Source: an uncultured bacterium (GTDB lineage: Bacteria; Acidobacteriota; Vicinamibacteria; Vicinamibacterales; UBA8438). Taken from it: 64,000 nucleotides of DNA. Made by a program: the position numbers and the translations under genes. The notes beneath the pieces were generated by a model. That model did not search any database. It was not told the DNA's origin and was given only the letters and a program-made list of their open reading frames with translations. The DNA is taken from positions 2,029 through 66,028 of the forward strand of contig CAWWAF010000003.1 in NCBI GenBank assembly GCA_963934795.1, written 5' to 3'. Numbering within the stretch: position 1 is the stretch's first letter; every line of letters starts with the position of its first letter. Below, in pieces: positions 1 through 16,070 of this stretch.

Positions 1-4
1 ACCG

Positions 5-1276
5 TCACAGCGGGTCCTCAAGATACGGGATGGTCTGTGGGCCCTCTGGCAAGACGCAGACACGCGCCTTCGGTCCGAAGCGCGCGAGCGCCTCCCGCGT
101 GGCGGCACCGACGTCGTGGATCGGCGTCAGATGGACCGCTCGCACCTGCTCATCTGTCAGGCCCTCGGTCTTGAGCAGCACCGCAGCTCGCTGCTGAATC
201 TGGGCCTGCATCTGCACTTCCCATTGGTCATGACGGTTGTGACCCGGCGCGTTGATCATCTCCAGGAGCCCCTCGGCGGTATCGCGTTGGGTAAGAATAT
301 CTAGAAATTCGCCGTGGTCCGGGTAGCCATCCGCGCACGCAGCGGCGCAGATGATGATCCCATGAGGTTTCACGACCTGGGCCGCGGCCGACATGCCCTT
401 GATGGACTGATACAGGTTCTGATCGAGTGGGTAGCCACTGTTGGTCGTGACCACGACGTCGAACGGCTCTGCGAACGCCTGCATCGCTGTCTGCTTGACG
501 ACGGTACGGACGGTCCGATGGACGGCGAACAACTCACCGGCCTCCACATGCGTGATATTGCGGTCGCGGTTGATGGCGACATCGATGCTGAAATCGACCT
601 CAGACAAAGCCGCGATGTGGCGGACCGCATCGTGAATAGGATTCCCCTCGATCACGCCCCAACGAGCTTGTGGGTGTCGGATCATCTCGGCGTCGTGTAG
701 ACGCATGATCGTTTCGAACCCGGCCAGCCCCGGCGCGACGAGTTTTGGCCCGCCGCTAAAGCCAGCGAAGAAATGCGGTTCGACGAAGCCGGTCGTGATC
801 CGCACGTCCGCCTCGACCCACGTGCGGTTCAGCCACACCGGGATGCCGTCTACCTCGCCAAGCGACACCAGGGCAGAGGCGTCGAACGCATCGTGGATGA
901 CGATGCGGTTGCGGTCTACGATCTCAGCGCCGAACATCTCAATCAACTCGTCGCGTGTCGTGGCCCGGTGTGTGCCGCTGGCGACCATGATCGCGATCTG
1001 GGCGGTGGGGACGTGTGCCAGCGCATCCAGCAGCACTGGCAGCAGGGTTGCGCTTGGCATCGGGCGCGTGATGTCGCAGACGGAAATAGCGACCGTGTGG
1101 TCGGCTCGCACGAGGTCACGCAGGGGGGCGGTGCCGGTTGGGTGCTCGATGGCTTGCCGGATAGCGCCACGCTGGTCCGCCAGACCGTCGATATACGTTG
1201 GCTGGATCACCGTCGTCCGGTCGTCTGGGAATTCGACCGGAAGACCGGTGCGGCCGTAAGCGAGAGTGACGAGCAT
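5..1276 (-). CDS. LarA-family (DUF2088) nickel-pincer-dependent 2-hydroxyacid racemase/epimerase homologue
   Basis: 423-aa ORF. Motifs ASGTHR and EPHFFAGFSGGPK match, from memory, the cofactor-binding His/Lys regions of Lactobacillus plantarum LarA. The ATG lies 24 nt downstream of the selenoprotein stop on the same strand. Confidence 0.8.
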   Translation of the reverse strand: MLVTLAYGRTGLPVEFPDDRTTVIQPTYIDGLADQRGAIRQAIEHPTGTAPLRDLVRADHTVAISVCDITRPMPSATLLPVLLDALAHVPTAQIAIMVASGTHRATTRDELIEMFGAEIVDRNRIVIHDAFDASALVSLGEVDGIPVWLNRTWVEADVRITTGFVEPHFFAGFSGGPKLVAPGLAGFETIMRLHDAEMIRHPQARWGVIEGNPIHDAVRHIAALSEVDFSIDVAINRDRNITHVEAGELFAVHRTVRTVVKQTAMQAFAEPFDVVVTTNSGYPLDQNLYQSIKGMSAAAQVVKPHGIIICAAACADGYPDHGEFLDILTQRDTAEGLLEMINAPGHNRHDQWEVQMQAQIQQRAAVLLKTEGLTDEQVRAVHLTPIHDVGAATREALARFGPKARVCVLPEGPQTIPYLEDPL

Positions 1277-1300
1277 CGATGAGCGCCTGCGAGTAGATGC

Positions 1301-1852
1301 CTAGACCGCCACCAGGATGGCCAAGACTTGTGGGACGGCCTCGTCGGCGCGCGACTGAATTTCGGCGTCGGTGAGTGTGCTCAGCGGGTGCGTGATGACC
1401 ACTGTGTCCAGACCCTCCGCGCCGAGCGCCGCGCGCTGCACCTCGGCCTCTCGGACGAACGCCGCAGTGATGATAGCCGCGGTCGGCACGCCTCGTTGTT
1501 CCAGCCCGATGGCGTCGTGCAAACTGCACGACGTGCAGGACCCTCAATCTCCGATGGCGGTGATGACGGCGTCGTTCTCTGCCGCGATCTGGTCCAGCAA
1601 GGAGTCCGGGGCCGCCCGCGAGAAACTGCCCTTCGTGTAGTGCGTGATGGTCGCCGGTGCAGCCTCAGCTTCCAGCCGCGTTGCGACACGCCGCAGCAGG
1701 TTTGACCCGTTCCACTTCGAGTTGTCCAGGATAGCCACGCGCATGCCGCGCAGTGTCGCGAGTCGAGCGGCCAGCGCGACCGTCTCGGCCGTCACGGTGC
1801 CGCGTGGGTCGAAGACGGTCTGCCCAGACGGCAGGGTGGAATGCGTGGACAT
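1301..1852 (-). CDS. UGA-recoded selenoprotein, UxxCxxC (UGSC-type, GrdB-like motif), copy A, about 183 aa
   Basis: ORFs 1544..1852 and 1301..1522 share a frame and are separated only by TGA 1544..1546. Read-through gives ...VITAIGD-U-GSCTSCSLHDAIGLEQRGVP... A hairpin follows the TGA. A paralogue at 9718..10257 has the same architecture. Confidence 0.75.
1513..1533 (-). promoter_or_regulatory. putative bacterial SECIS hairpin (copy A)
   Basis: On the mRNA, CGUCGUGCA-GUU-UGCACGACG forms a 9-bp perfect stem. The stem starts at the 11th nt after UGA and the GU-containing apical loop lies about 20 nt after UGA. The nucleotide block is conserved in copy B. Confidence 0.6.
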
Positions 1853-1914: not shown

Positions 1915-3018
1915 TCACAACTCGCAGGTGCCGTCCGTGCATCGGACGTCGTTTTGGGGCGCCTGACCATCAATCGCGCGCAGTACCGGCGATGTCATGT
2001 GCCCCCAGCCAGGGAGGAACGCCGAAAATCGGCCGGCTTCGCCCCCCGCGACGAACAGGTGAATGTCGTCTGGAGACGGCACGATTGGAATACGCGCGCC
2101 CGGTTCGCGCCGATACCATTTGGGCAGATTGCGGTTGTAGATTTTGCCGTACCGGCCGTGGAAGCTGATGTCGTCGAAGGTGTTCGTGGTGTGTGACCAC
2201 AGATACCGTCGCACATCGCCGCGTGTCCAGCCGGCGCCAGCGATCGTGGCGGCGTGCTCCGGTCCGACGACGACAGCGCAGGAGCCACTGCTCACCGCGT
2301 TGTTGTGGGCGATGGTGCTCATACACGATACAAGACTATCCAGTACGCCTTGCGGGTCGTTCGCCACATGGTTTGTGACGCTATGCGGTCCTTCCGTGGC
2401 GATGCAGAACACCGTGCTGTCGTCGGGCCGATAGCCTTTTTCGACATGGTAGGGCGCCCACGGACTGGCTTCCTCGTGTTCGGCGATACAGAACGTGTAC
2501 TTCCCTGGATGACCGAGCGTGCTCTTGTCGAGGTCGCCCGGCCACCCGCCCCCGACATTGAGCATGATGAGCCGGAGGGCGCGGCCGATCGTGGCGTTCG
2601 CGCGGTTTCCGGAGCCGAACACGTTGGCGCCTGCGTTCATCCCGATCGTGCGGCGGATCGGGCCGTTCACGATGAGAAGCGGCGCGGCCATGTGCGTCGT
2701 GGCCTGTATGCCGTTGAGGTTGAAGTGTGCGCCACAGAGCGCCAGGATCGCGGCCCGGACGACCGGCGCGTAGGCTGGCGTGCATCCGGCCAGCACAAGA
2801 TTGATGGCGAGCACTTCCCGAGTGAGGTTGCCCCACCGGGGTGGCACCCGCGTCTCCAGCCGGTGCGCGTCTCCGCCCAGCGCCTCGACCATCGCGGCGA
2901 CTGTTGCCGTGGTTGGTGGCACCACCGGAAGCCCGTCGGTCCATCCCTGTTCGAAATACCACTCAACGAGATCGAGCTGCGTGTCCGTGGTAATCGTGGA
3001 TGCGGAGGCGTCTGGCAT
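1915..3018 (-). CDS. conserved hypothetical protein, selenoprotein-partner family (copy A)
   Basis: Long ORF. The ATG at 3018 is preferred over the TTG at 3060. It is colinear with residues about 190-558 of ORF 10311..11948, with shared blocks DGLPVVPPT, LAGC(T/R)P, VNGPIRR, FG.G.RANATIGRAL, STLG.PGK(Y/F)T.C and GKFSAFL.GW. I do not recognise the family. Confidence 0.6.
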   Translation of the reverse strand: MPDASASTITTDTQLDLVEWYFEQGWTDGLPVVPPTTATVAAMVEALGGDAHRLETRVPPRWGNLTREVLAINLVLAGCTPAYAPVVRAAILALCGAHFNLNGIQATTHMAAPLLIVNGPIRRTIGMNAGANVFGSGNRANATIGRALRLIMLNVGGGWPGDLDKSTLGHPGKYTFCIAEHEEASPWAPYHVEKGYRPDDSTVFCIATEGPHSVTNHVANDPQGVLDSLVSCMSTIAHNNAVSSGSCAVVVGPEHAATIAGAGWTRGDVRRYLWSHTTNTFDDISFHGRYGKIYNRNLPKWYRREPGARIPIVPSPDDIHLFVAGGEAGRFSAFLPGWGHMTSPVLRAIDGQAPQNDVRCTDGTCEL

Positions 3019-5449: not shown

Positions 5450-5470
5450 GCGAAGGCGCGTCAGGGGGGC

Positions 5471-5878
5471 TCAGGGGGTGGAGAACCGTGCGCGAGCACG
5501 GAACAGCGCGGTGGTCGGAATCATGAAGATGGCAAAGCTCACGGCCGCGGAGCCTAGCGACCCGCGTGCCAGGCTGAACACCAGCATGCTGATCGCGACC
5601 TGTAGGGCATAGGCGGCGGCCCACGGCCACATCCAGGTTTTCATCTTCCACATGCCGTAGGCGCCCGCGGCGTAAATGGCCCAGTGGACTGGTTCGGTCA
5701 GTTTCGCGGCCCACCCTTCGAGCAGGAAGCCGAACCAGACTTCCTGGTCTTCGGCGACAGGCTTGAGGAACATGTCAAACGGCATGTACACGAACGTCAT
5801 GAACAGACAGAACCCGAAAATCAGGTTCATCCACCATGGGCGGCGGGTCCATGCCGCGCGTAGATTCAGTGCCGCCAT
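5471..5878 (-). CDS. small integral membrane protein, unknown function
   Basis: 135-aa ORF with about 4 hydrophobic, Trp-rich segments. It starts 6 nt downstream of the FadB-like gene on the same strand. Confidence 0.5.
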   Translation of the reverse strand: MAALNLRAAWTRRPWWMNLIFGFCLFMTFVYMPFDMFLKPVAEDQEVWFGFLLEGWAAKLTEPVHWAIYAAGAYGMWKMKTWMWPWAAAYALQVAISMLVFSLARGSLGSAAVSFAIFMIPTTALFRARARFSTP

Positions 5879-5884
5879 TGTGGG

Positions 5885-8005
5885 TTATAGGTCGCCGAAC
5901 CCTTTGCCTTGTTCGGCCAGTCGCTTCAGCAACGGGGCCGGTTCCAGCCAGTAGTCACCATGCGCGTCGTGTAGCCGGCTCATCGCCTCGTAGATGGTCT
6001 TGATGCCGACCAGATCGGCCCAGAACATCGGGCCGCCCCGGTAGCGGGGAAAGCCGTAGCCATACATCCAGACAACGTCAATATCGCTGGCCCGCTGGGC
6101 GAGTCCCTCCTCGAGGATCTTCGCGCCTTCGTTGACCAGCGGGTACATGCACCGTTCGAGAATTTCCTGGTCGCCAACCTCGCGCCGCGCGAAACCGTTC
6201 TCGGCCGACACCTGGAGTACCAGTTCGTTGACGACCGGGTCGGGAATCGGGGTGCGGCTACCCGATTCGTAACGGAACCATCCGGCGCCAGTCTTCTGGC
6301 CAAATCGGCCCAATTCGCAGACCCGGTCAGCCACCGCCGAGTAACGGAGATGGGCGGGCCGGGTCGCGGCTTGCCGCTGGCGGATGCGCCAGCCGACATC
6401 CAGTCCAGCGAGGTCCCCCATGGCGTAGGGACCCATCGGCATGCCGAAGTCGTAGATGACCTTGTCGATCTGGTGCGGGAGCGCGCCCTCTTCCAGTAGG
6501 AAGTCGGCCTGCCGGCGATAGGCGTACAGCATGCGGTTGCCCACGAACCCGTCGCAGATGCCCACCAGCACGCCGATCTTCCCGATGCGCTTCGACAGCT
6601 TCATGATGGTCGCGATGGTCTGGGGCGACGACTCGGCACCCCGTACGTTTTCCATCAGCTTCATCACGTTCGCCGGGCTGAAGAAATGGGTCCCGATGAC
6701 CTTGTCCGGCCGCCGCGTTGCCGACGCGATCTCGTCGACATCCAAGGTGGAGGTGTTCGTGGCCAGAATCGCGTCGGGCTTGCAGGCGGTATCCAGCTGC
6801 GCGAAGACCTCCTTCTTCAGATCCATGTCCTCAAACACGGCTTCGATGACGATGTCCGCGTCAGCCAGGTCGTCGTAGGACACCGTCGTGGAGATCAGCC
6901 CAAGTCGAGTGTCCATCTGCGCCTGGGAGAGGCGGCCCTTGGTGACCGTGGCGGCATAGTTCTTCGTGATGAGCCCCATGCCCTTGTCGAGGGCGTCCTG
7001 AGAGACCTCAAACACCTTCACGGGAATTCCGGCGTTGGCAAAGTTCATTGCGATGCCGCCACCCATGGTGCCGCAGCCGATCACCGCCGCGGTCTTGATC
7101 GGCAGGAGGGGCGTGTCTTTCGGCACGTCAGCAATCTTCGAGACCTGTCGCTCGGCGAAAAACGCGTGCCGCTGCGCCTTCGACTGGTCGGAGGCGAGGA
7201 GCTTCGTGAAGGTCTCACGCTCTTTCGCGAGGCCGGCGGAGAACGGCAGATTGGCGGCGGCCTCGACGCACTCCACGCAGGCAAATGGCGCCTCGAAGCC
7301 ACGCGCGCGACGAGCCATGTTTTTGCGGAACTCCGCAAATATCTCCGGCGCGTCGCGGCTCTCGGCCACCCGGTCGTCAAGCGCTGACATCCTCCGAATG
7401 GGGACCTGTTCTTCGAGCATGCGGCGAGCCTCCCTCACCGCGGCCTCCACGACATCGCCGTCGACGACGGCGTCCAGGATGCCGAGCGCCTGGGCATCAG
7501 CCGCCGGTACCATCTTGCCAGTGACGATGACGTCGAGTGCGGCCGGGACGCCGATCAAACGGGGAAGGCGCTGCGTGCCACCGGCGCCGGGCACGATGCC
7601 GAGCGTGACTTCAGGCAGTGCGACTCGCGTGCCCGTGGCCGCCACGCGCAGATGGCAGCCCAGGGCGAGCTCGAGCCCTCCGCCGAGCGCAAACCCGTGG
7701 ATCGCCGCCACAACGGGCTTTGTTGACGCCTCGATGGCGTCGATCAGCGTCGGCAGGTGTGGGGTGCCGGGCGGAGGCGCCTGTCCGAACTCCCGGATGT
7801 CGGCCCCGCCGCAGAACATCTTGCCACCGCCGGTGACAACCAGCGCCCGGACGGCGTCGTCACTCAGTGCAGACTCGAGCGCGGCGTGCAGCCCGTTGCG
7901 TACCGCAAAGCCCAATCCGTTCACCGGTGGGCTATCGAGCGTGATGACGGCTACGCCGTCGCGAATTGAATTGGTTACAACATCAGACATGCGAGGTCCT
8001 TCCAA
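5885..8005 (-). CDS. bifunctional enoyl-CoA hydratase / 3-hydroxyacyl-CoA dehydrogenase (FadB/FadJ-like)
   Basis: 706 aa. The N-terminal crotonase motif is GGGKMFCGGADIREF. The central Rossmann motif is AVIGCGTMGGGIAMNFANAG, followed by a 3HCDH C-terminal region. Confidence 0.9.
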   Translation of the reverse strand: MEGPRMSDVVTNSIRDGVAVITLDSPPVNGLGFAVRNGLHAALESALSDDAVRALVVTGGGKMFCGGADIREFGQAPPPGTPHLPTLIDAIEASTKPVVAAIHGFALGGGLELALGCHLRVAATGTRVALPEVTLGIVPGAGGTQRLPRLIGVPAALDVIVTGKMVPAADAQALGILDAVVDGDVVEAAVREARRMLEEQVPIRRMSALDDRVAESRDAPEIFAEFRKNMARRARGFEAPFACVECVEAAANLPFSAGLAKERETFTKLLASDQSKAQRHAFFAERQVSKIADVPKDTPLLPIKTAAVIGCGTMGGGIAMNFANAGIPVKVFEVSQDALDKGMGLITKNYAATVTKGRLSQAQMDTRLGLISTTVSYDDLADADIVIEAVFEDMDLKKEVFAQLDTACKPDAILATNTSTLDVDEIASATRRPDKVIGTHFFSPANVMKLMENVRGAESSPQTIATIMKLSKRIGKIGVLVGICDGFVGNRMLYAYRRQADFLLEEGALPHQIDKVIYDFGMPMGPYAMGDLAGLDVGWRIRQRQAATRPAHLRYSAVADRVCELGRFGQKTGAGWFRYESGSRTPIPDPVVNELVLQVSAENGFARREVGDQEILERCMYPLVNEGAKILEEGLAQRASDIDVVWMYGYGFPRYRGGPMFWADLVGIKTIYEAMSRLHDAHGDYWLEPAPLLKRLAEQGKGFGDL

Positions 8006-8114
8006 TGCGCCGAAAGTGTGCCGCGTGGCGCGCCGCGGGATTATATCGTCACGGCTACGGCATGTGTTGACGGGGTGGGGTTGGTCGTCGCGTCCGGCGA
8101 TGGCACGACCGGTG

Positions 8115-9671
8115 TCACGCCATGTCTGGCGGCACCGGTTCTGCGCCCGTCAGCATCTCGTAGAAGTTCTCACGGACGCCCGTCTGACTGGTCAACAGTG
8201 AGACGACCGGTACCACGATGAGCGGGATAAAGAACGTCAGATACGATGGGTCAATGCCCTGACCGTCGACCGTCAGCGCGTAGGCCAGGGTGCGCCAGGC
8301 GAGGCCGGCATCCGGTGCCGCTGCGAACCCCGTCGCAAGCGCAATTTTGATCAGAGCGAACCAGATCAGGCCTGATCCGTAGCCGATGGCCATACCCCAG
8401 TACGCGCCTGGTTCGGTGGTACGCCGCCAGTACACGAGATAGCCGAGCGACACGGCGGGCGGCACCACCATGGCGAACCCGAACAGCAACAGGTCGAGAA
8501 TCGAGATGGTGGTATAGGTCGCGACCAGCCACGCCGCGATCGCGGCCGCGAAGGCATACACCGTGGTCGTGATCCGATAGGCCTTCAGACGTTGTTCCGA
8601 ACTGTAGCGTCTGGTGAAGGGGAGCCAGTCGCGGACAAACATGGTGGCGCTTGAGAGCAAAATGGGCCCGCCCGAGGAAATGACCGCGGCCAGGACCGCC
8701 GCAAGCGCAATGCCGCCGACGACCGGACTGATTTCCGAGGCGAGCGTCGTCAGGTTCCGGTAGCCGCCAATCCCGGTGTCCAGCCCGTAGCGAGCGGTCG
8801 TGAGAATACCGATCACGCCAGCCAGCATCGGCATGACCCCGGCGATGAGGCCGGCAAGGAGAAACGCGGGAGCAATGTGCCGTTCGCTTCTGGCGGCGGT
8901 CGAGTAGTTCGTGTAGACCGACGCGGCCGGCGTGTGCACCGCCGCGGCGAAGAACATCCCGAAGACCGGAAGCCAGCCGGCCCCTGCGAATCCCCACCAG
9001 GCGCCGGTGTCGCGCGAGGCCGCGACCAGGTGTTCGTCAACAGTGGCGGTCACGGCCGTCCATCCACCGAGCTGGTCGACGCCCATCACGCCGACAGCGA
9101 TCAACCCGATGAGCACGACCGAGCAATGGATCAAATTGGTGACCGCAGTACCCCAGAGGCCACCAAGCGACACATACGTGGCGAAGATGCAGGCTGCCAC
9201 CATGACACCACCGAACATGGGGAGCGGAGTCAGGGTGCTCAGGATGACGCCGATGACGTACGCCTCGATCAAATTCACGATGGCGTATTCGGTCTGGACA
9301 CAGAGGCTGGTCAGCCACTGGCAGCGGCGGTTCTTGAAACGGATCGTGAAGAGTTCTCCGACGGTGCGCAGTTTGAAGCGGCGGAAGTAGATGCAGAAGA
9401 ACAGACCGACGATGGCCAGCGCCAGGAAGGCGTTGATCCCGTACCACCACAGGTTCCAGACGCCGCCACTGATGACATCGCCCGCGACGCCATAGGTGCC
9501 AGCTCCGCCAATGCGGGTGCCGGCTATACCGACGGCGACCAAGCTGGTCGACATCCCACCGCCAGCCACTGCCCAGCCGGTCGAGTCGCTGGTGCGACGC
9601 GCCATCAGGCTGCCGGCGGCGGTGGCCGCAACCAGATAGACGACGATGGTGGTCAGCGCGATGGCATCCAT
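8115..9671 (-). CDS. sodium:solute symporter (SSS) family transporter
   Basis: 518 aa with about 13 predicted TM helices. The N-terminal pattern ...AGSLMARRTSDSTGWAVAGGGMS... is typical of SSS family members. Confidence 0.85.
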   Translation of the reverse strand: MDAIALTTIVVYLVAATAAGSLMARRTSDSTGWAVAGGGMSTSLVAVGIAGTRIGGAGTYGVAGDVISGGVWNLWWYGINAFLALAIVGLFFCIYFRRFKLRTVGELFTIRFKNRRCQWLTSLCVQTEYAIVNLIEAYVIGVILSTLTPLPMFGGVMVAACIFATYVSLGGLWGTAVTNLIHCSVVLIGLIAVGVMGVDQLGGWTAVTATVDEHLVAASRDTGAWWGFAGAGWLPVFGMFFAAAVHTPAASVYTNYSTAARSERHIAPAFLLAGLIAGVMPMLAGVIGILTTARYGLDTGIGGYRNLTTLASEISPVVGGIALAAVLAAVISSGGPILLSSATMFVRDWLPFTRRYSSEQRLKAYRITTTVYAFAAAIAAWLVATYTTISILDLLLFGFAMVVPPAVSLGYLVYWRRTTEPGAYWGMAIGYGSGLIWFALIKIALATGFAAAPDAGLAWRTLAYALTVDGQGIDPSYLTFFIPLIVVPVVSLLTSQTGVRENFYEMLTGAEPVPPDMA

Positions 9672-9717
9672 ACGGATGACTCGGAGTCGGCCCCGGACGT
9701 GGAGAGAATCAGTGTCG

Positions 9718-10257
9718 CTACGAATGTGACGTGAGCGCGTTGAGGATCGCGTCGATCGCCAGCTGCGCCTTTACCCGCATCTCATCGTCGGTTGAACCCT
9801 GAATCGGGTGTGGTACGAAGACCGAGTTGGTGGCCATGTCCGGGATCCCGAGCGCTTCCGCTTGGGTCTTGGCCGCGTGCACGAACTCCGTCGACGCCAC
9901 CATGACCGACGGAATACCGCGCATCTCGTAGTCCACCAGGTCGTGCACACTGCACGACGTGCAGGACCCTCAATCGGCGAGCGCCTGGATGACGGCCTGG
10001 CAGCGACTGCTGACTTCGTCGCGAAGATCTGGCGGCGACGGTTTGGTATAGGTCGGCTTCCTCAGCCGGAGCACCTGAAGCGCCGGAAGCCGTTCTCGTA
10101 TGAGGCGCTCGAGCTCGTCGAGAAAGACGTCCCCGCGCGGTTTCGCGATGTCGACGATGCCAATCGTGCCCGTCAACTGGTCAGGGCGGTCGGCTAGCTG
10201 GCGCCTGATGACCGTGCGTTCGTCGGTCGGGTCAAGAATGACCAGCGGCTCGTGCAT
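9718..10257 (-). CDS. UGA-recoded selenoprotein, UxxCxxC (UGSC-type), copy B, about 179 aa
   Basis: ATG at 10257 is preceded by AAGGAAG. In-frame TGA at 9970..9972. Read-through gives ...CQAVIQALAD-U-GSCTSCSVHDLVDYEMRGIP..., the same frame as ORF 9718..9948. Same hairpin and motif as copy A. Confidence 0.75.
9940..9958 (-). promoter_or_regulatory. putative bacterial SECIS hairpin (copy B)
   Basis: GUCGUGCA-GUG-UGCACGAC forms an 8-bp stem. The stem starts at the 12th nt after UGA and the apical loop lies about 20 nt after UGA. Confidence 0.6.
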
Positions 10258-10310
10258 AGGATATCTTCCTTTCTTGAATCGGACTGTCGCTGACTGTATC
10301 ACCAGGGCTG

Positions 10311-11948
10311 CTAGGGCCGGATCTCGCGGGTGACGGCCATAGACCCGGCCGCGCCGTTCGCCCATCCTCCCAGAAAGGCTGAAAACTTGCCGGTGGTGCC
10401 GCCCGCCACCATGACGAGGATGTCCGTGTCTTGTTGGAACTTCGACAGGGGCGTGTCCAGGCCTTCGGCGGTCGGCTGTCCGTCCGGACCGAGTAGGGCG
10501 TTGGGCACTGCGCGCATGGTCATGCCTTTCTGGCAATCGGCATCCGGGAGCAGCTCGCGCAGCGGCCGTGCGGTGGCTTCCTGTATTCGGGCACGGAGAT
10601 CCGCCTTGGTGTACCCGTCGCGCTCGAAAATTTGGATATGTTCGGGGCTGACTACGAGCAGCGCTTCTCCCACGTGAGCCAGCTTCGGATGCGCCATGGA
10701 CTGAAGGCACATTCCCATGCTCGCGCCGAGTGAGGGTGCAGTTCGGGAGAGCTGGTCGCGAATCGCTCTGGGCGCTTCGCCGGCGAACACGGTGACCGTG
10801 CTGACGTCGGCCGCGAAGCCACGCTCAACATGGAACGGCTCCCAGCAACTGGCCTCCTCAAGCTCGCCCACGCAGCAGGTGAACTTGCCGGGTTGTCCGA
10901 GCGTCGACATGTCAACGCCGCCTGGTTTTCCGCCGCCGATGTTGCGGACCACGAGCTGCAGGGCGCGTCCAATCGTGGCGTTGGCGCGGAAGCCCTGCCC
11001 GAAGAGGTTGGGGCCGCAGTTGAGGTCGATGGCTCGTCGAATTGGACCATTGACGACAATGACCGGTGCCACAAAGTAGGTCGTGGCCAGCACGCCGTGA
11101 AGATTGAACTGGTCCGTGCAGGCGGCCTCGGTCGCCGCAATCACGACCGGCAGATAGTCCGGACGGCACCCCGCCATGACGGCGTTGATGGCGATTTTCT
11201 CGACCGTGGCTGGGGCGAGGTTCGGGGGGACGTGCGCCACGACGTCAGAGGCGGCGCGTTCGGTGCCCTCGAGCATGCGCAGCACCCGCGCCTCGGTCGG
11301 GGGTACCACCGGCAGCCCGTCGTCGAGTCCCTGCGCCGACAGGAAGTCGAACGGGTCGTTGTCAATCGGCACCTGCACGCGCCTGGCGCCGAGCGTTGCG
11401 GCGCCTCGGCGGACGGCCAGGTGTCGGGCCATGTCTGGGTCATGGACCTTCGAGCCGCAACCGGGGCGATGCTCCGGTAGTCCGTCACCGTCGTGCACGA
11501 GACGTGGCACGGCGGCACCGCACGCCGCCGCGGCCCGCTCGGTGAGCGTCAGGAGATCTGGTCGAGTAAATCCCTCGAAGCTGGCGAGTACCGCGCGGTC
11601 AGGGTCGACGAGGACCAGCGCCGGGACGGCGTCGAATCCGTAGTCGGCTGACACTTCAAGGTCGCCATCGAGCGCGACGGCAAAGGATAGGTGGTGACGG
11701 GCGACGACGTCGGACGTGTAGGCGACCGCGTCTTGGGAAATACCGACGACGCGAAGCCCTTCGTCGGAGAGCGCGGTGTGTAAGCGCTCCACGAGTGGGA
11801 GCGTGAGATCACAGGTTGCACAGTCGTGCTTGAAGAAGACCAGTAACGTGGGAACGGCATCACCGCCCCCGAATGCTACGACCTGGTTGTTACCCGTGGA
11901 TAGCGAGAACGCGGGCGCCATCGCGCCCAGAGCTGGTAGTTCTGACAT
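10311..11948 (-). CDS. fusion protein: N-terminal thioredoxin-fold (TlpA/redoxin-like, CxxC) domain plus selenoprotein-partner domain (copy B)
   Basis: The N-terminal about 150 aa read APAFSL...LLVFFKHDCATCDLTLPLVERL...VVGISQD...AVPALVLVD, a redoxin-like pattern with CATC. The remainder is homologous to 1915..3018. The ATG at 11948 is preferred over the GTG at 11987. Confidence 0.65.
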   Translation of the reverse strand: MSELPALGAMAPAFSLSTGNNQVVAFGGGDAVPTLLVFFKHDCATCDLTLPLVERLHTALSDEGLRVVGISQDAVAYTSDVVARHHLSFAVALDGDLEVSADYGFDAVPALVLVDPDRAVLASFEGFTRPDLLTLTERAAAACGAAVPRLVHDGDGLPEHRPGCGSKVHDPDMARHLAVRRGAATLGARRVQVPIDNDPFDFLSAQGLDDGLPVVPPTEARVLRMLEGTERAASDVVAHVPPNLAPATVEKIAINAVMAGCRPDYLPVVIAATEAACTDQFNLHGVLATTYFVAPVIVVNGPIRRAIDLNCGPNLFGQGFRANATIGRALQLVVRNIGGGKPGGVDMSTLGQPGKFTCCVGELEEASCWEPFHVERGFAADVSTVTVFAGEAPRAIRDQLSRTAPSLGASMGMCLQSMAHPKLAHVGEALLVVSPEHIQIFERDGYTKADLRARIQEATARPLRELLPDADCQKGMTMRAVPNALLGPDGQPTAEGLDTPLSKFQQDTDILVMVAGGTTGKFSAFLGGWANGAAGSMAVTREIRP

Positions 11949-12013
11949 CGCGTCGCATTGTGGCAGCTTTCGGGCCGCGAGCGCCACTCAACGCCAGCGT
12001 CACGTGTCCGGTG

Positions 12014-12934
12014 CTACTGTGGCGGTACTCGCCGATCCGCGAACAGCTGCATCGTGTAGTCTGGTCCTACAATTCCGGCTCCGATCTGCGCGCCCGGCGT
12101 ATCGCCTGGTCGCTCGTACTCGATTCGGTAGCGACTCGACATCGCGTTGAAGTGCTCGCCCATCCGTGTGGCGAACTCGGCCAGCGTCTCAACCAGCGCG
12201 GTCGCCGAGTTGATCGATCGGTGGAGCCCCCCGGTGGCCTGTGAGACGATCCGGGAAATCTGACTCTGTACAGACCCGAGTTGGTTCTCCAGTATCACGG
12301 TGTGGACCATGGCACCCTTGCTGGTCAGATCCTGGACGAACTCGTTGAACTGATCCGGATTGATGTTCCCGCTGCCCTCAGGAGCGTCGGTGATCACCAT
12401 AAAGATGACCGGCCACGGCTCGTCGCCGTCGAAGCGCCTGTCCCAGGTGTCCGTCAGGCCGTCGACCATCCTCGCGCCGCCGCCACGGTTGAACAGCCCA
12501 TCAGCGGCGTCACGCAGTTCGTCCCGGTCGGTCGTGAAGTCCACCAACGGCAGGATATTGCCGGCGATCGAGTACATCGCCACTTCGTGTTGGGGGGGCA
12601 GTATGTTCAGGAATTCGGTCATCCCGTTGCGCAGGGCGCTGACGCCGTTGCCGATACCTTCGCTGTTGTCCACGAGTATCGCGATCTTCATCGGCGCGGT
12701 GCCTAGCACAGCGGAGACGACCGTCATCGCGACGCCGTCCTCATTGATCTGGAAGTCTTGTGGCGTCAAGCTCATCACCGGTTCGCCCGCTGCGTCCGTG
12801 ACGCTGGCAAAGAGTACGCCGCGGCTCTGCGCGCGCGCGGAGGACGCAACGGCGAGCGTCACGACCACGGCGATGGTCAGGACACCCAGACATCGCGACA
12901 CCGGATGACGATGTGTAGTGTGATGGTTTCTCAT
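12014..12934 (-). CDS. secreted VWA domain protein (acidobacterial VWFA-related type)
   Basis: 306 aa with a signal peptide. Contains KIAILVDNSEGIG (partial MIDAS) and an N-terminal ...DFQINEDGV... segment reminiscent of the VWFA-related Acidobacterial domain. Confidence 0.7.
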   Translation of the reverse strand: MRNHHTTHRHPVSRCLGVLTIAVVVTLAVASSARAQSRGVLFASVTDAAGEPVMSLTPQDFQINEDGVAMTVVSAVLGTAPMKIAILVDNSEGIGNGVSALRNGMTEFLNILPPQHEVAMYSIAGNILPLVDFTTDRDELRDAADGLFNRGGGARMVDGLTDTWDRRFDGDEPWPVIFMVITDAPEGSGNINPDQFNEFVQDLTSKGAMVHTVILENQLGSVQSQISRIVSQATGGLHRSINSATALVETLAEFATRMGEHFNAMSSRYRIEYERPGDTPGAQIGAGIVGPDYTMQLFADRRVPPQ

Positions 12935-13061
12935 CTCTCACTCTCAGACGACAACGACGGTGGCAATGTTTCGTGCTGGCGCCCCCGCGCGCCGGACGGT
13001 GCTCTCGGATGTTACCCCTCGACCGTAGCACGCCATAGCTATCCACTCGTGCCATCAGCTG

Positions 13062-14027
13062 CTAGCGCGTCGTGAGCAGTCCTTCGTAGATGCCGAAGAA
13101 CGTCTCGACGTCGAGATCTAGCATGACATCGAGAGTCGGGGCGGCTGACGGGACACCGACGCGCGTACCGCCGTAGGTGGGTCCGAAGGTGGTTTCAACC
13201 ACGATCGGGAGGCGCTCCGATACGGTGACGATCGTCGGGTCGATCAGCCAGGCCGCGGTGATGCAGTCCCACACCTGATACGTGGCGGCGGGGTTCGCGT
13301 CGAATCGCGGCCCCATGTCGTCGCGCATCAGTCGAGTGAGCGGCGTCTCGACGGCGACGATTCGGTCAAACAGTGGTCTCTGCAGAGGAGCGTGGTTTGT
13401 AATGTCGAGCCCGAACATCACTATCTCGGGTACCGCCGCCGCCAGCACGGCGTGCGCCGCTTCGGGGTCGAACCAGATGTTGAATTCGGCTGCGGGTGTG
13501 ACGTTGCCGGGAACACGGGCATTTCCGCCCATAAAGACGAGGCGTTTGATGAGAGGGGCCAAGTCCGGTCGTCGCTGCAACGCGAGCGCAATGTTCGTCA
13601 TTGGCCCCATGGCAATCAACGTCACCTCATTCGGATACTGCTCGATGGTGTCGATGATGAACGCGACAGCGCCGGTGGTGTTGGGCCGCGCCACAGCGAA
13701 GCGTCCACCGTGTGGGGGGACGAGGGTATCGCTGGCATCAAACGCTCCCTTGAAGGAGACGGGGCCCCACCGGGCCTCCTGGAGGGCGGCCCGGGAGGCA
13801 GAGTTGACCAGCGGCGAGTGGGCGCCGAGGTATAGCGGGATGTTGTCGGCCCCGATGAGTTCGAGCAGATGCAGCATGTGCTCGGCGCCCTGAGGCACCG
13901 GGTAGTTCCCGGCGACGACGGTGACACCAAGGATGTCCACCACGTCCGGTCGCCTGGCCAGCATGGCCAGGGCGGCCGCGTCGTCATTGAACACCGCCGA
14001 GTCAGTGTCGAAGATGATGCGTTCCAC
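13062..14027 (-). CDS. nucleoside hydrolase (IUNH family)
   Basis: 321 aa. The N-terminal Asp cluster IIFDTDSAVFNDDAAALAM is a variant of DxDxxxDD. Family-like length. GTG start. Confidence 0.8.
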   Translation of the reverse strand: MERIIFDTDSAVFNDDAAALAMLARRPDVVDILGVTVVAGNYPVPQGAEHMLHLLELIGADNIPLYLGAHSPLVNSASRAALQEARWGPVSFKGAFDASDTLVPPHGGRFAVARPNTTGAVAFIIDTIEQYPNEVTLIAMGPMTNIALALQRRPDLAPLIKRLVFMGGNARVPGNVTPAAEFNIWFDPEAAHAVLAAAVPEIVMFGLDITNHAPLQRPLFDRIVAVETPLTRLMRDDMGPRFDANPAATYQVWDCITAAWLIDPTIVTVSERLPIVVETTFGPTYGGTRVGVPSAAPTLDVMLDLDVETFFGIYEGLLTTR

Positions 14028-14033: not shown

Positions 14034-16070
14034 CTAGGGCAGCGCCAAGGCGATGAGCTCCGGCACGGGGGAGCCGCCTACCGTCAGCGCCACGTATTGC
14101 TTGCCGTCCAGCAGATACGTCATCGGCGTGCCGATGGCGCCGCGCGGAAGGTCGACCGAGGCGAGTGGCTCGCCGGTGGCCTTGTTGATTGCCAGGAGGC
14201 GTGGACCGCCGTCACTGCCTCCCGTCGTGAGCGCATACATGAGCAGCGTCTTGGTCACCAACGGTCCGCTCCGGCTCCCATCACCTCCAACGGGTGGCAG
14301 GTTGAGGTCCCGGAGCATCGGATGATTGCGCACCCGATCGCCGTCGCCCAGCGGCTGCATCCAGGTGTGGTCGCCGGTATTGAGATTGATGGCGGTCATT
14401 CGGGAGTAGGGCGGCTTGAAGAGAGGAAGCCCCTGCGGCATCGTCACCTGACGGGCATATTCTCCTCGTCCTTCGATGACGGCGAGCGTGGCGTCCTCGC
14501 CCGGTTGTGGCTCGCGATAGCGGCGAAGACTGAACGCGTTGGACGATGGCACGTAAAGCAGACCGGTCTCCGGGTCGACGCCCGCACCTGACCAGTTCGC
14601 GCCACCCCCAGAGCTGGGTCGCTGGATGGTGCCGCTCAGACTCTGTGGCGTAAAGAGCGGCCCGAGGCGGAATCCCTCGACAGCGTCGATCGCCATCTGT
14701 CTGATCTCGGGAGTGAAATCGACCAGGTCCTCGATGGTAGCGCCCTGATACTCGAATGGCGCCGGGCGTGTGGGGAACGGCTGCGTCGGCCAGACTTGCT
14801 CACCGGGGATGTCGGTGTCCGTTGGCACCGCGCGTTCTTCGATCGGCCAGACCGGTTCGCCGGTGACTCGATCGAAGACGTACACAAACCCTTGCTTACT
14901 GATCTGCGCGAGCGCCTTGATGGGGCGGCCGTCGACTTCAATGTCAACCAGGTTCGGTGCGGCCGGAAAGTCGTAGTCCCAGAGGCCGTGGTGCACCGCC
15001 TGGAAGTGCCACTCGCGCTCCCCGGTCTCAATGTTCAGCGCAATCACGCTCTCCGCGAACAGGTTCGCGCCGGGTCGGTGCCCACCGTAGTAGTCGGGGG
15101 CCGGTGTATTGGTGGGGAGATAGAGGAGGCCCAGGTCCTCGTCGGCGCTCATCAGCGACCATACCCCGACCTTGCCGGTGACTCGCCATGAGTCGCCGCC
15201 CCACGTGTCATTGCCGAACTCATCGCCCTGGGGAATCGTGTGAAACGTCCACTTCGTGCTTCCCGAGTGCACGTCAAAGCCGCGCATCCAGCCGGGGGGC
15301 GCCTCGCGCGTGATGTTGTATGACGAGATGGAACTGGGCGTGATTACCGTGTCGCCGACCACGATCGGCGGTGACTGTACGGAGTAGAGCAGCGCATTGA
15401 GCCAGTCCCGATTTTCGCGATCCGCCCGCGGGAGGTCCCGCACCAAGTCGAGCCGCCCATTCTCGCCAAAGTCGAGGCAGGGGCGGCCGGTCGCCGCGTC
15501 GACGCAGATGAGGTACCCGTTTCCGGTGCCCCAATACACCCGCTCGGACTCACCGTCGCTCCAATACGCCACGCCCCGTTGGTTCCAGCGGGCGCTCATG
15601 GTGGTGGTACCGGCTTCGTACGTCTTGGGGTTGTACACCCAGAGCGTGTCGCCCGTCCTGGCGTCGATGGCCGCGCCGGCCGACGTCGGCATGTTGATAA
15701 ACATCCGCCCATTGGCCATCAGCGGTGTCGCCTTGAGGTTGTTCGTATATGGCGGTTGGCCGTCGCGCCACCGATTGGGGTCCGCCTGGTTCAGGGCCTC
15801 GAAGATCACGTCTGACGGCGCCGACCACTCGCCACCGTCCGGCGTGGTGAGACTCATCACGGCGTCAGAGGATTGCCAGCGCCAGGCAATCTCAAGGTCG
15901 GCGAAGTTTGACGCGTCAATCTGGTCAAGCGGCGAGTATTTGGTGCCGCCCAGGTCGCCTCCATAGGTCCGCCACTCACCAGTGGCTGGTGCGCCCTGTT
16001 GCGCGGCGGCGGGGGTCGTGGCTGCCAAGGCGACAGCTGCGACTCCGCAAAATCGAGTCCATGTGCTCAT
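14034..16070 (-). CDS. periplasmic PQQ-dependent dehydrogenase, paralogue of 3533..5449
   Basis: The start at the internal ATG 16070 is preceded by GGAGAG. A signal peptide is followed by GEWRTYGGDLGGTKYSPLDQIDASNFADLEIAWRW. Colinear with the other copy. Confidence 0.85.
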   Translation of the reverse strand: MSTWTRFCGVAAVALAATTPAAAQQGAPATGEWRTYGGDLGGTKYSPLDQIDASNFADLEIAWRWQSSDAVMSLTTPDGGEWSAPSDVIFEALNQADPNRWRDGQPPYTNNLKATPLMANGRMFINMPTSAGAAIDARTGDTLWVYNPKTYEAGTTTMSARWNQRGVAYWSDGESERVYWGTGNGYLICVDAATGRPCLDFGENGRLDLVRDLPRADRENRDWLNALLYSVQSPPIVVGDTVITPSSISSYNITREAPPGWMRGFDVHSGSTKWTFHTIPQGDEFGNDTWGGDSWRVTGKVGVWSLMSADEDLGLLYLPTNTPAPDYYGGHRPGANLFAESVIALNIETGEREWHFQAVHHGLWDYDFPAAPNLVDIEVDGRPIKALAQISKQGFVYVFDRVTGEPVWPIEERAVPTDTDIPGEQVWPTQPFPTRPAPFEYQGATIEDLVDFTPEIRQMAIDAVEGFRLGPLFTPQSLSGTIQRPSSGGGANWSGAGVDPETGLLYVPSSNAFSLRRYREPQPGEDATLAVIEGRGEYARQVTMPQGLPLFKPPYSRMTAINLNTGDHTWMQPLGDGDRVRNHPMLRDLNLPPVGGDGSRSGPLVTKTLLMYALTTGGSDGGPRLLAINKATGEPLASVDLPRGAIGTPMTYLLDGKQYVALTVGGSPVPELIALALP

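What the first reader, a model, noticed from the sequence alone, without database searches (positions are those of the whole stretch)
9718..11948. Candidate uncharacterised Sec-dependent reductase module: selenoprotein plus conserved partner, with a thioredoxin-fold fusion in copy B
Each selenoprotein gene lies immediately downstream of a homologous large gene, with gaps of 62 nt (copy A) and 53 nt (copy B). The partners are 1915..3018 and 10311..11948. They share long blocks, for example NLNGIQATTHMAAPLLIVNGPIRRTIGMNAGANVFGSGNRANATIGRALRL versus NLHGVLATTYFVAPVIVVNGPIRRAIDLNCGPNLFGQGFRANATIGRALQL. They also share conserved Cys residues in LAGC(T/R)P and K(Y/F)T.C. I cannot place this partner in any characterised family. 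In copy B it carries an N-terminal TlpA/redoxin-like domain with a CATC redox motif. That is a Rosetta-stone type hint that the module cycles through a selenenyl-sulfide or disulfide reduced by a thioredoxin-like domain. Glycine and proline reductases depend on thioredoxin or dithiols in an analogous way. The duplicated gene pair, the Sec, and the redox-domain fusion together look like a two-component reductase with no described function.
Basis: inference. Interest (0 to 1): 0.9.

Follow-up and report, generated by a model that had tools for sequence, protein, structure and literature searches.

The report
UGSC selenoprotein with its uncharacterised partner
The window holds two copies of a two-gene unit, a known selenoprotein of unknown function (UGSC family) and an unannotated 350-residue partner, and the two are neighbours or fused across many bacterial phyla, which gives this abundant selenoprotein a testable working context.

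Summary
Both small genes are UGSC-family selenoproteins (NCBIfam NF041046, Pfam PF24696). Each has an in-frame TGA (D-U-G-S-C) followed by a conserved SECIS-like hairpin. Both large genes are paralogues (42% identity). They belong to a very large family that matches no Pfam model, no NCBIfam model and no solved structure. Copy B carries a cytoplasmic TlpA/ResA-like CxxC domain.

The pairing is not chance:
- 64 of 80 species-representative genome loci have a UGSC gene beside the partner.
- 56 of 61 evaluable metagenome loci found from the UGSC side have the partner directly upstream.
- 42 of the 150 best cluster representatives are partner-UGSC fusion proteins.
- Other fusions add a redoxin, a thioredoxin-reductase-like domain or a ferredoxin:thioredoxin-reductase-like domain.

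No third gene is conserved. Neighbours are mostly organic-acid transport and catabolism genes.

Best reading: a heteromeric thiol/selenol redox enzyme recycled by thioredoxin-type reductants. The reductase chemistry and the substrate are inferred, not shown. Homology to glycine or proline reductase was not found.

UGSC is already catalogued, and a fusion to an unnamed domain ("Unknown_1") was reported in 2008. The new parts are the partner family, the near-obligate pairing and the redox fusions.

The parts
10311..11948 (-). Copy B partner gene (545 aa): N-terminal TlpA/ResA-like thioredoxin-fold domain, a Cys-bearing linker, and the uncharacterised partner core
   Evidence: ORF. The closest relatives are 545-553 aa at 63-91% identity and 100% coverage. 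AF2 model has pLDDT 87.
11526..11888 (-). Redoxin / AhpC-TSA domain of copy B (residues 21-141). The CATC redox motif is at residues 43-46 (nt 11811-11822).
   Evidence: Pfam AhpC-TSA 46.8 bits, Redoxin 45.4 bits. Foldseek matches ResA and DsbE with TM about 0.9 normalised to the target. C43 and C46 are invariant in 60 relatives. Only about 9 residues precede the domain, so there is no room for a signal peptide or membrane anchor (sequence inspection).
11358..11525 (-). Linker of copy B with two further invariant Cys: C143, and C164 in RPGCGSxVHDPD
   Evidence: C143 is kept in 59/60 and C164 in 60/60 B-clade sequences. The role is unknown.
10311..11357 (-). Partner core of copy B (residues 198-545)
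   Evidence: 42% identical to copy A over 334 residues. Matches the partner HMM across nearly its whole length, profile positions 7-350.
9718..10257 (-). Copy B UGSC-family selenoprotein gene (179 aa read through the UGA). The Sec codon TGA is at 9970-9972.
   Evidence: NF041046 152.9 bits (cutoff 125); PF24696 151.7 bits. Translation.
9939..9959 (-). SECIS-like hairpin of copy B, starting 16 nt after the U of UGA. The conserved 5-bp stem core is 9942-9956.
   Evidence: Hairpin predicted. The stem is conserved in 70 sequences with 7 CG-to-GC compensatory changes.
1915..3018 (-). Copy A partner gene (367 aa from the ATG; 381 aa if the TTG at 3060 is the start). It is stand-alone, with no redoxin domain.
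   Evidence: ORF. Relatives are 361-377 aa at 73-90% identity. AF2 model has pLDDT 91 and pTM 0.90. Conserved D28, C79, R146, K173, C177, E180, H255.
1301..1852 (-). Copy A UGSC-family selenoprotein gene (183 aa read through). The Sec codon TGA is at 1544-1546.
   Evidence: NF041046 158.2 bits; PF24696 193.9 bits. Translation.
1513..1533 (-). SECIS-like hairpin of copy A (stem core 1516-1530)
8115..9671 (-). Sodium:solute symporter gene directly downstream of UGSC B (46-nt gap). This is lineage-conserved context, not part of the universal module.
   Evidence: Pfam SSF. Same order in L004-L006 and L167-L169.
5885..8005 (-). FadB-like enoyl-CoA hydratase / 3-hydroxyacyl-CoA dehydrogenase gene. 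Lineage-conserved context.
   Evidence: Pfam ECH_1, 3HCDH_N, 3HCDH. Synteny.
5..1276 (-). LarA-like (lactate racemase family) gene directly downstream of UGSC A (24-nt gap). Lineage-conserved context.
   Evidence: Pfam Lar_N 199 bits, LarA_C 116 bits. Same position in L004-L006.

Best explanation
Each copy is a two-gene unit that encodes one enzyme made of two proteins.

- The 350-residue partner is the large subunit. It has a well-packed fold with no close solved relative. It keeps a set of almost invariant polar residues and two Cys: D28, C79, R146, K173, C177, E180 and H255 (copy A numbering). That set looks like a substrate-binding active site.
- The 180-residue UGSC protein supplies a selenocysteine in a D-U-G-S-C (UxxC) redox motif.

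Proposed cycle: the selenol(ate) attacks or reduces a small substrate held by the partner. The Sec then ends in a selenenyl-sulfide, either with its own Cys or with a partner Cys. That bond is reduced again by a thioredoxin-type dithiol. In copy B the reductant is built in as the N-terminal CxxC (CATC) redoxin domain. Copy A would use free thioredoxin.

Shown:
- the identity of the parts;
- Sec decoding signals;
- near-obligate pairing and frequent fusion of the two families;
- recurrent fusion to thioredoxin-system domains.

Inferred:
- physical complex formation;
- catalysis by Sec;
- the selenenyl-sulfide cycle;
- that the reaction is a reduction;
- the substrate class. The best guess is a transported organic (carboxylic) acid, from the neighbouring genes.
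For: - Family identity and Sec. A conserved hairpin follows the UGA, with compensatory changes. Cys replaces Sec at the same position in Parapusillimonas, Candidimonas, an Actinomycetota MAG and Natrialba.
- Pairing from the partner side: 64/80 species-representative genome loci have a same-strand UGSC gene within 1 kb. About 6 of the 16 exceptions are cut by contig ends.
- Pairing from the UGSC side: 56/61 evaluable metagenome loci have the partner directly upstream.
- Co-diversification: the order partner->UGSC goes with UGSCT[STA]C. The order UGSC->partner goes with UGSCTSW.
- Fusions: 42 of the 68 representatives of at least 400 aa, taken from the top 150 clusters, carry a UGSC domain. 5 carry a redoxin, 2 FeThRed_B and 1 Pyr_redox_2. 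The TrxR-like domain keeps CAVCD, and the FTR-like domain keeps its Cys motifs.
- A TrxR-sized flavoprotein gene lies in the Candidimonas cluster.
- Active-site-like conservation in the partner over 530 sequences: R146 and E180 100%, D28 99%, C79 98%, C177 96%.
- Sec strongly outnumbers Cys: about 59 versus 4 in genomes, 80/80 in metagenome loci, and 255 versus 21 in GOS (PMC2398784). In that same GOS table the Trx-like and Prx families show the reverse ratio.
- No third conserved gene, so the pair is self-contained.
Against: - There is no experimental datum on any member.
- No model of the complex could be made and no coordinates were available. Proximity of Sec to C79/C177 is therefore untested.
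- Fusions to thioredoxin-system domains are a minority: 8 of the 150 top clusters.
- A TrxR-like gene is rare among neighbours: 2 of 108 downstream ORFs.
- One fused UGSC domain (P0162) has lost both U and C while the partner keeps its two Cys. In at least some lineages the partner therefore does not need the Sec.
- A short Poribacteria variant and a few other loci have no adjacent UGSC.
- Orphan UGSC genes exist (L004).
- The substrate guess rests on heterogeneous neighbours.
Confidence: 0.55

Rival explanations
1. UGSC is only a dedicated selenium-containing electron carrier, in the way NrdH or thioredoxin is. The partner is the real reductase. Its own C79/C177 pair does the chemistry and is then re-reduced by UGSC, which is in turn reduced by Trx/TrxR.
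For: - UGSC has a UxxC motif placed as in thiol-disulfide carriers, and the GOS authors thought a Trx-like fold likely (PMC2398784).
- The partner keeps two nearly invariant Cys.
- The partner keeps them even where the fused UGSC domain has lost U and C.
- L170 reads as a complete chain: UGSC followed by a partner-TrxR fusion.
Against: - Plain electron carriers in the GOS table are overwhelmingly Cys forms: Trx-like 1 has 321 Sec versus 7,880 Cys. UGSC is overwhelmingly Sec (255 versus 21, PMC2398784).
- Copy B already has a fused CxxC carrier domain and still keeps UGSC, so two carriers in series would be needed.
Confidence: 0.25
2. The partner is a non-redox enzyme, a hydro-lyase, isomerase or racemase acting on a carboxylic acid. 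It would use a Cys pair as acid/base or as metal/cluster ligands. UGSC and the thioredoxin-type domains would only keep those Cys reduced, or would regulate the enzyme.
For: - The only structural matches, all weak, are to class I fumarate hydratases, Toblerone-fold cyclic amide hydrolases and PrpD.
- Neighbours include LarA, PrpD/MmgE, MaoC, ECH, CoA-transferase III and carboxylate transporters (TctC, TRAP DctM, SSF).
Against: - The Foldseek matches have TM about 0.2-0.26 and rmsd 13-19 A.
- hhalign against E. coli FumA gives probability 0.1%.
- Only two Cys are conserved, not the three cluster ligands of class I fumarases (the three-ligand rule is from my own knowledge).
- A mere protective role does not explain a near-obligate partner that is often fused and almost always uses Sec.
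Confidence: 0.12
3. The module is a peroxide or electrophile detoxification system, a peroxiredoxin-like or AhpD-like defence, and not a metabolic enzyme.
For: - The N-terminal domain of copy B hits AhpC/TSA and Redoxin, and JGI names relatives 'peroxiredoxin'.
- Many aerobic bacterial selenoproteins are antioxidant (PMC13188914).
- The family is abundant in oxic ocean and soil (PMC2398784).
Against: - The fused domain has a CxxC motif, and its best structural matches are ResA/DsbE/TlpA thiol-disulfide oxidoreductases, not peroxiredoxins.
- Thiol peroxidase (NF006960) scores 24 bits against a cutoff of 140.
- Neighbours are catabolic and transport genes, often under LysR or MarR regulators. 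They are not oxidative-stress genes.
Confidence: 0.08
4. The adjacency in this window is incidental, and the two families are functionally unrelated.
For: None found. Some orphan UGSC genes and some partner genes without UGSC do exist.
Against: - Adjacency in 64/80 and 56/61 independent loci across more than 10 phyla.
- Two gene orders, each tied to its own motif subtype.
- 42 fusion-protein clusters.
Confidence: 0.01

Closest known systems
UGSC-containing (seleno)protein family (NCBIfam NF041046, Pfam PF24696; Zhang & Gladyshev 2007/2008)
   Same: Both small genes of the window are full members. Their scores exceed the curated cut-offs, and they have the D-U-G-S-C motif, an in-frame UGA and a SECIS-like hairpin.
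   Different: Nothing differs for the selenoprotein itself. The literature treats it as a stand-alone selenoprotein of unknown function (PMC1976440, PMC13188914). Here it turns out to be half of a conserved pair.
'UGSC/Unknown_1 fusion' reported in the GOS selenoproteome (PMC2398784, Fig. S1A)
   Same: A UGSC protein is fused to a conserved domain of unknown function that has conserved Cys. The partner-UGSC fusions found here fit that description.
   Different: The published alignment is held only as an image, so identity of Unknown_1 with this partner could not be verified. [quoted passage not shown] This family has 5,058 clusters at 50% identity and spans soil, marine, bacterial and archaeal genomes. 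The unfused operon form and the Trx, TrxR and FTR fusions were not described.
Glycine/sarcosine/betaine reductase protein B (GrdB with GrdE) and D-proline reductase (PrdB with PrdA)
   Same: - A two-protein selenoenzyme, with a small Sec subunit and a larger substrate-binding subunit.
- A UxxCxxC motif in both window copies, as in GrdB/F/H (PMC6778437, PMC13188914).
- Reduction by thioredoxin or dithiols (from my own knowledge of these enzymes).
   Different: - No GRDB match even at E up to 10, and the partner matches no family.
- The third Cys is not conserved in the UGSC family.
- No grdA, grdC or prdC-type genes were seen nearby.
- Hosts are mostly aerobic soil and marine heterotrophs, not Stickland fermenters.
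- The resemblance is one of working principle, not of membership.
TlpA/ResA/DsbE thiol-disulfide oxidoreductases
   Same: The N-terminal domain of copy B has the fold (TM about 0.9 to 3gl3, 1st9 and 2h1b) and a CxxC at the canonical position.
   Different: Those proteins are membrane-anchored or periplasmic and serve cytochrome maturation (my own knowledge). This domain has no leader or anchor and is fused to a cytoplasmic protein. The ResA NCBIfam score is 37.8 bits against a cutoff of 170.
Thioredoxin-dependent reductases whose catalytic Cys/Sec is recycled by Trx (MsrA/B, ArsC, PAPS reductase)
   Same: The proposed logic is the same: a nucleophilic Cys/Sec, then an intramolecular disulfide or selenenyl-sulfide, then reduction by Trx.
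   Different: There is no sequence or fold relation. Here the catalytic unit is split over two proteins.

Membership tests
UGSC family (seleno)protein (NF041046 / PF24696) | HMM score above the curated cut-off over the full length | tested here: met
   Copy A: 158.2 bits (NCBIfam) and 193.9 bits (Pfam). Copy B: 152.9 and 151.7 bits. Cut-offs are 125 and 25.
UGSC family (seleno)protein (NF041046 / PF24696) | U(or C)-G-S-C motif at the conserved position | tested here: met
   D-U-GSCTSCS in both copies. U95, G96 and C98 are invariant in 24 diverse members.
UGSC family (seleno)protein (NF041046 / PF24696) | Sec decoding: in-frame UGA followed by a bacterial SECIS-type hairpin | tested here: met
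   Hairpin found. A 5-bp stem is conserved in 70 sequences, with 7 double changes at one pair. No Sec machinery or tRNA-Sec lies inside the window, which is uninformative for 64 kb.
TlpA/ResA-type thioredoxin-fold thiol-disulfide oxidoreductase (Redoxin PF08534, AhpC-TSA PF00578) | Domain HMM above the gathering threshold | tested here: met
   46.8 bits against 26, and 45.4 bits against 26.6.
TlpA/ResA-type thioredoxin-fold thiol-disulfide oxidoreductase (Redoxin PF08534, AhpC-TSA PF00578) | CxxC at the N-terminus of helix 1, and a thioredoxin fold | tested here: met
   CATC at residues 43-46, just before helix 44-63. Foldseek E about 1e-11 to ResA and DsbE.
TlpA/ResA-type thioredoxin-fold thiol-disulfide oxidoreductase (Redoxin PF08534, AhpC-TSA PF00578) | Extracytoplasmic location (signal peptide or membrane anchor), and equivalog-level score for ResA | tested here: not met
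   Only about 9 residues precede the domain (sequence inspection). ResA NF002854 scores 37.8 bits against a cutoff of 170.
Glycine/betaine/sarcosine/proline reductase selenoprotein B (GRDB, PF07355) | Sequence membership of the selenoprotein in GRDB | tested here: not met
   No GRDB hit in a Pfam scan at E up to 10.
Glycine/betaine/sarcosine/proline reductase selenoprotein B (GRDB, PF07355) | UxxCxxC motif | tested here: inconclusive
   Present in both window copies and in the partner->UGSC subtype. The third Cys is replaced by W, G, S or A in other UGSC members.
Glycine/betaine/sarcosine/proline reductase selenoprotein B (GRDB, PF07355) | Companion pyruvoyl proprotein (GrdE/PrdA), and GrdA/GrdC or PrdC genes nearby | tested here: not met
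   The partner matches no Pfam or NCBIfam family. None of these families appears among the most frequent families listed for 225 neighbouring ORFs; the tool lists only the first 25 per set. Self-cleavage to a pyruvoyl group cannot be tested with these tools.
Class I (Fe-S) fumarate hydratase / Fe-S hydro-lyases | Detectable homology of sequence or fold | tested here: not met
   Best Foldseek E is 3e-4, but with TM 0.23-0.26 and rmsd about 18 A. hhalign against E. coli FumA gives probability 0.1%.
Class I (Fe-S) fumarate hydratase / Fe-S hydro-lyases | Three conserved Cys ligands for a [4Fe-4S] cluster | tested here: not met
   Only C79 and C177 are conserved across the family.
Any solved structure or curated family, for the partner core | Significant match by sequence, profile or fold | tested here: not met
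   - Sequence search (phmmer) against PDB: 0 hits.
- Profile search against PDB: only E about 1.
- Pfam and NCBIfam: none.
- Foldseek: weak only.
- The AlphaFold DB was not available.

The most novel reading that the evidence does not exclude
The partner plus UGSC is a previously unrecognised, very widespread class of two-subunit (or fused) selenoenzyme built on a new fold. It would carry out a thioredoxin-driven reductive transformation of an imported organic acid in aerobic soil and marine heterotrophs. In effect it would be an aerobic counterpart of the Stickland-type selenium reductases. It would also explain why UGSC is one of the most abundant selenoproteins in ocean metagenomes.
Probability: 0.3. 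Interest if true: 0.85.

Novelty: new variant of a known kind. Interest (0 to 1): 0.62.

Why it matters
UGSC has been listed since 2007 as a selenoprotein of unknown function. [quoted passage not shown]

This work shows that UGSC almost always comes with one specific, unannotated 350-residue protein, and is often fused to it. That partner is in turn sometimes fused to thioredoxin-system domains. An orphan selenoprotein therefore becomes a defined experimental system.

- There are two proteins to co-express.
- Natural Cys versions exist in cultured strains (Candidimonas nitroreducens, Parapusillimonas granuli, Natrialba asiatica).
- There is a predicted reductant.
- There is a shortlist of conserved residues to mutate.

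The work also defines a large protein family, 5,058 clusters at 50% identity, that has no Pfam or NCBIfam model. Its members are annotated as 'hypothetical'. In the fused form they are named 'TlpA family' or 'peroxiredoxin', which describes only the N-terminal domain.

Tried and rejected
1. GrdE/PrdA-like pyruvoyl proprotein for the partner, and a GrdB/PrdB relation for UGSC. There are no Pfam hits even at E up to 10 and no PDB hits. I could not obtain GrdB or PrdB sequences for a profile-profile test. The idea is kept only as an analogy.
2. Class I fumarate hydratase or Toblerone-fold relationship. Foldseek matches are weak, and hhalign against E. coli FumA is negative.
3. A conserved third gene. 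The first and second neighbours on both sides of 64 loci were scanned against Pfam. They are heterogeneous, and the top family reaches only 6 of 108 or 6 of 117 ORFs.
4. Reading Fig. S1A of the GOS paper to identify 'Unknown_1'. The panel is held only as an image.
5. A fold search with the full copy B model returned only thioredoxin-fold hits. The core therefore had to be modelled alone.
6. The first attempt at a UGSC-side metagenome scan failed because no stretch was conserved enough. It was repeated with a closer subset. The reverse test therefore covers only the copy-A-like UGSC subclade.
7. The promoter and terminator scan of 1-13000 was uninformative: 0 promoter-like sites, and terminator-like sites near the shuffle expectation.
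8. Rfam and tRNA scans of the window found nothing.
Full report
**What is in the window**

Two same-strand gene pairs lie on the minus strand.
- Copy A: a 367-381 aa gene (1915..3018/3060), a 62-nt gap, then a 183-codon gene (1301..1852) interrupted by one TGA at 1544-1546.
- Copy B: a 545 aa gene (10311..11948), a 53-nt gap, then a 179-codon gene (9718..10257) with a TGA at 9970-9972.

The large proteins are paralogues, with 42% identity over 334 residues and E 5e-83. The small ones are 34% identical, and both read D-U-G-S-C-T-S-C-S at the TGA.

**The small genes are a known family**

Both score well above the curated cut-offs of NCBIfam NF041046 'UGSC family (seleno)protein' and Pfam PF24696. 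The literature lists this family as a selenoprotein of unknown function (PMC1976440). [quoted passage not shown] A 2026 review still gives it no function (PMC13188914).

Directly after each UGA there is a hairpin. In an alignment of 70 such regions from unrelated loci, a 5-bp stem 16 nt after the UGA is conserved. One pair switches CG to GC in 7 sequences. That switch accompanies a Cys-to-Trp codon change, so the RNA pairing is kept while the protein changes. In four genomes the TGA is replaced by a Cys codon at the same position. Sec decoding is therefore well supported, although no Sec machinery lies inside the 64 kb.

**The large genes belong to a large, unannotated family**

The partner core matches nothing:
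- no Pfam or NCBIfam model;
- no PDB entry by sequence or by profile.

An exhaustive HMMER search found 5,058 clusters (at 50% identity) with E <= 1e-3, and 1,299 with E <= 1e-30. Sources call the members 'hypothetical protein'. One UniProt entry has the submitted name 'thiol-disulfide oxidoreductase'.

A scan of one genome per species found at least 595 loci. The hosts include:
- Acidobacteriota/Vicinamibacterales (the nearest relatives of the window, 84-87% identity);
- Dehalococcoidia;
- Alpha- and Betaproteobacteria;
- Methylomirabilota/Rokubacteria;
- Binatia;
- Poribacteria;
- Bacillota;
- the haloarchaeon Natrialba asiatica.

AlphaFold2 gives a confident model of the copy A core (pLDDT 91, pTM 0.90). 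Foldseek against the PDB returns only weak, poorly superposing matches:
- class I fumarate hydratases, E 3e-4 but TM about 0.25 and rmsd about 18 A;
- Toblerone-fold amide hydrolases;
- PrpD.

A profile comparison with E. coli FumA is negative, with probability 0.1%. I treat the fold as having no close solved relative.

Across 530 family members, R146 and E180 are invariant. D28 (in DGLPVVPPT) is 99% conserved, C79 (AGC) 98%, C177 (KYTxC) 96%, and K173 and H255 95%. This is the pattern of an enzyme active site, not of a scaffold.

**The fusion in copy B**

Residues 21-141 of copy B are a thioredoxin-fold domain. It scores 46.8 bits for AhpC-TSA and 45.4 bits for Redoxin. Foldseek gives TM about 0.9 to ResA and DsbE. 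CATC sits at the canonical position.

Only about nine residues precede the domain. Unlike TlpA and ResA, it therefore has no export signal or anchor and should be cytoplasmic (sequence inspection).

The architecture is not a one-off. At least 120 clusters of 63-91% identity share it. In 60 of them examined, four N-terminal Cys are invariant or nearly so: C43 and C46, C143 (59 of 60), and C164 in RPGCGSxVHDPD.

**The pairing is conserved from both sides**

From the partner side, I searched the 80 best genome loci with HMMs for both families.
- 64 have a same-strand UGSC gene within 1 kb.
- 48 are in the order partner->UGSC and 16 in the order UGSC->partner.
- About six of the 16 exceptions are cut by contig ends.
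- Five more are a short Poribacteria variant.

Gene order goes with motif subtype: UGSCT[S/T/A]C for partner->UGSC, and UGSCTSW for UGSC->partner. The two families have therefore diversified together.

From the UGSC side, I used 80 metagenome loci of the copy-A-like subclade.
- All 80 carry TGA.
- 56 of the 61 with enough upstream sequence have the partner directly upstream.
- Two more have it 1.2-1.7 kb upstream.

**Fusions**

Among the 150 best cluster representatives, 68 are at least 400 aa long.
- 42 of these carry a UGSC domain, N- or C-terminal to the partner. Many are truncated exactly at the Sec codon by gene callers.
- 5 carry a redoxin domain.
- 2 carry a ferredoxin:thioredoxin reductase catalytic-chain domain.
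- 1 carries a low-molecular-weight thioredoxin-reductase-like flavoprotein domain with a CAVCD motif.

In L170 a Sec-UGSC gene directly abuts the partner-TrxR fusion gene. In Candidimonas nitroreducens the cluster reads partner, UGSC (Cys form), CoA-transferase III, then a 343-aa TrxR-like gene.

The UGSC fusion to a conserved 'Unknown_1' domain reported in 2008 (PMC2398784) is very probably this partner. The figure is held only as an image, so I could not confirm it.

**Context**

No third gene is conserved. Among 225 first and second neighbours, the commonest Pfam families reach only 6 members.

The recurring themes are transport and catabolism of organic acids:
- TctC, TRAP DctM and SSF transporters;
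- CoA-transferase III, enoyl-CoA hydratase/dehydrogenase and MaoC;
- PrpD/MmgE and LarA;
- SMP-30-type lactonases and luciferase-like monooxygenases;
- LysR and MarR regulators.

In the window's own lineage a longer synteny is kept: PQQ dehydrogenase, nucleoside-hydrolase-like gene, redoxin-partner, UGSC, SSF transporter and FadB-like enzyme (L167-L169). In close relatives this continues directly into partner, UGSC and LarA (L004-L006). In the window about 2.8 kb is inserted between the two halves. The insert holds a PQQ dehydrogenase on the other strand, a small membrane-protein ORF and a truncated aquaporin fragment.

**Interpretation**

The shown facts are:
- two families that are neighbours or fused in the great majority of loci examined;
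- a Sec-x-x-Cys centre that is almost always Sec rather than Cys;
- a partner with an active-site-like constellation that includes two Cys;
- repeated capture of thioredoxin-system domains.

From these I infer a two-protein thiol/selenol redox enzyme. Its oxidised form, a selenenyl-sulfide or disulfide, would be re-reduced by a thioredoxin-type dithiol. That dithiol is fused in copy B and free for copy A. The strong preference for Sec argues that the selenium takes part in catalysis and is not a plain electron relay. In the GOS table the Trx-like and Prx families are overwhelmingly Cys forms (PMC2398784).

The main rival is that UGSC is a dedicated carrier and the partner's Cys pair does the chemistry. 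One fusion protein has lost U and C in its UGSC domain while the partner Cys are kept (P0162), which favours that rival for at least some lineages.

A non-redox enzyme merely protected by UGSC, and a peroxide-defence role, are less likely (see the rival explanations).

The analogy with glycine and proline reductases is one of working principle only. No homology was detected, and the third Cys of UxxCxxC is not conserved.

**Novelty and verdict**

The selenoprotein genes are ordinary members of a catalogued family. What is not in the literature I could search is:
- the definition of the partner as a very large family without any model;
- its near-obligate pairing with UGSC, in two gene orders that go with two motif subtypes;
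- the frequency of fusion;
- the thioredoxin, TrxR and FTR fusions that point to the electron source.

Function and substrate remain unknown. I rate it a new variant of a known kind (Sec-dependent, thioredoxin-linked redox enzymes), with moderate to high interest.

Noticed in passing
window 3096-3371 (-): A 91-aa ORF matches only the N-terminal third of the MIP/aquaporin model (positions 9-86 of 222). It is probably a gene remnant. It lies in a roughly 2.8-kb stretch (3060-5885) that is absent from the otherwise syntenic relatives L004-L006, where the FadB-like gene directly abuts the partner gene.
   Followed up: partly
window 3533-5449 (+) and 14034-16166 (-): Two full-length PQQ-dependent dehydrogenase paralogues (Pfam PQQ, E 1e-201 and 5e-183) flank the two modules. 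The second one, together with the nucleoside-hydrolase-like gene 13062-14027, is part of a synteny conserved in marine contigs L167-L169. The VWA-domain gene 12014-12934 is extra in the window.
   Followed up: partly
window 11358-11525 (-), residues 143-197 of copy B: The linker between the redoxin domain and the partner core holds two more Cys, conserved in 59 and 60 of 60 relatives (C143 and C164). The motif RPGCGSxVHDPD loosely echoes the UGSC active-site stretch D-U-GSC..S-V-H-D. It may be a third redox centre or a mimic, or the resemblance may be chance.
   Followed up: partly
L007-L086 (genome loci): Gene order correlates with the UGSC motif subtype. Partner->UGSC genes read UGSCT[S/T/A]C[S/C]. 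UGSC->partner genes read UGSCTSW[S/C]. The rare Cys forms read CGSCTS[S/G/A/W]C, with the third Cys shifted by one residue.
   Followed up: partly
P0162 (553-aa UGSC-partner fusion): The fused UGSC domain has lost both Sec/Cys and the second Cys (EIGGSLFG in place of D-U-GSC). The partner half keeps C79 and C177.
   Followed up: no
L038, L052, L063, L068, L069 (Poribacteria MAGs): A shorter partner variant matches only profile positions 3-280 and has no UGSC gene within the 4-kb flanks. It may be a UGSC-independent branch of the family.
   Followed up: no
L078; P0131, P0139, P0146, P0206, P0212, P0261: Tandem arrangements of the partner occur. One short contig has three partner genes in a row. 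Proteins of about 710 aa hold two partner cores in one chain.
   Followed up: no
L066 (MAG labelled Candidatus Nitrosocosmicus); L016, L021, L035, L080 (MAGs labelled Streptomycetaceae or Enterobacteriaceae): A Sec-type UGSC-partner pair lies on a contig binned as a thaumarchaeon, and the other four loci carry implausible family labels. The L066 partner is 46% identical to partner A over residues 21-336, identical in percent identity and matched range to the Rokuibacteriota MAG locus L055. This suggests mis-binning or mislabelling and not a true host range.
   Followed up: no
L004-L006 1717-2250; L009 1266-1796: In close relatives of the window, the copy-B-type UGSC gene sits in the same synteny (before the SSF transporter) but has no redoxin-partner gene upstream. 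A divergent beta-lactamase-family gene is there instead. The copy B partner can therefore be lost while its UGSC is kept.
   Followed up: no
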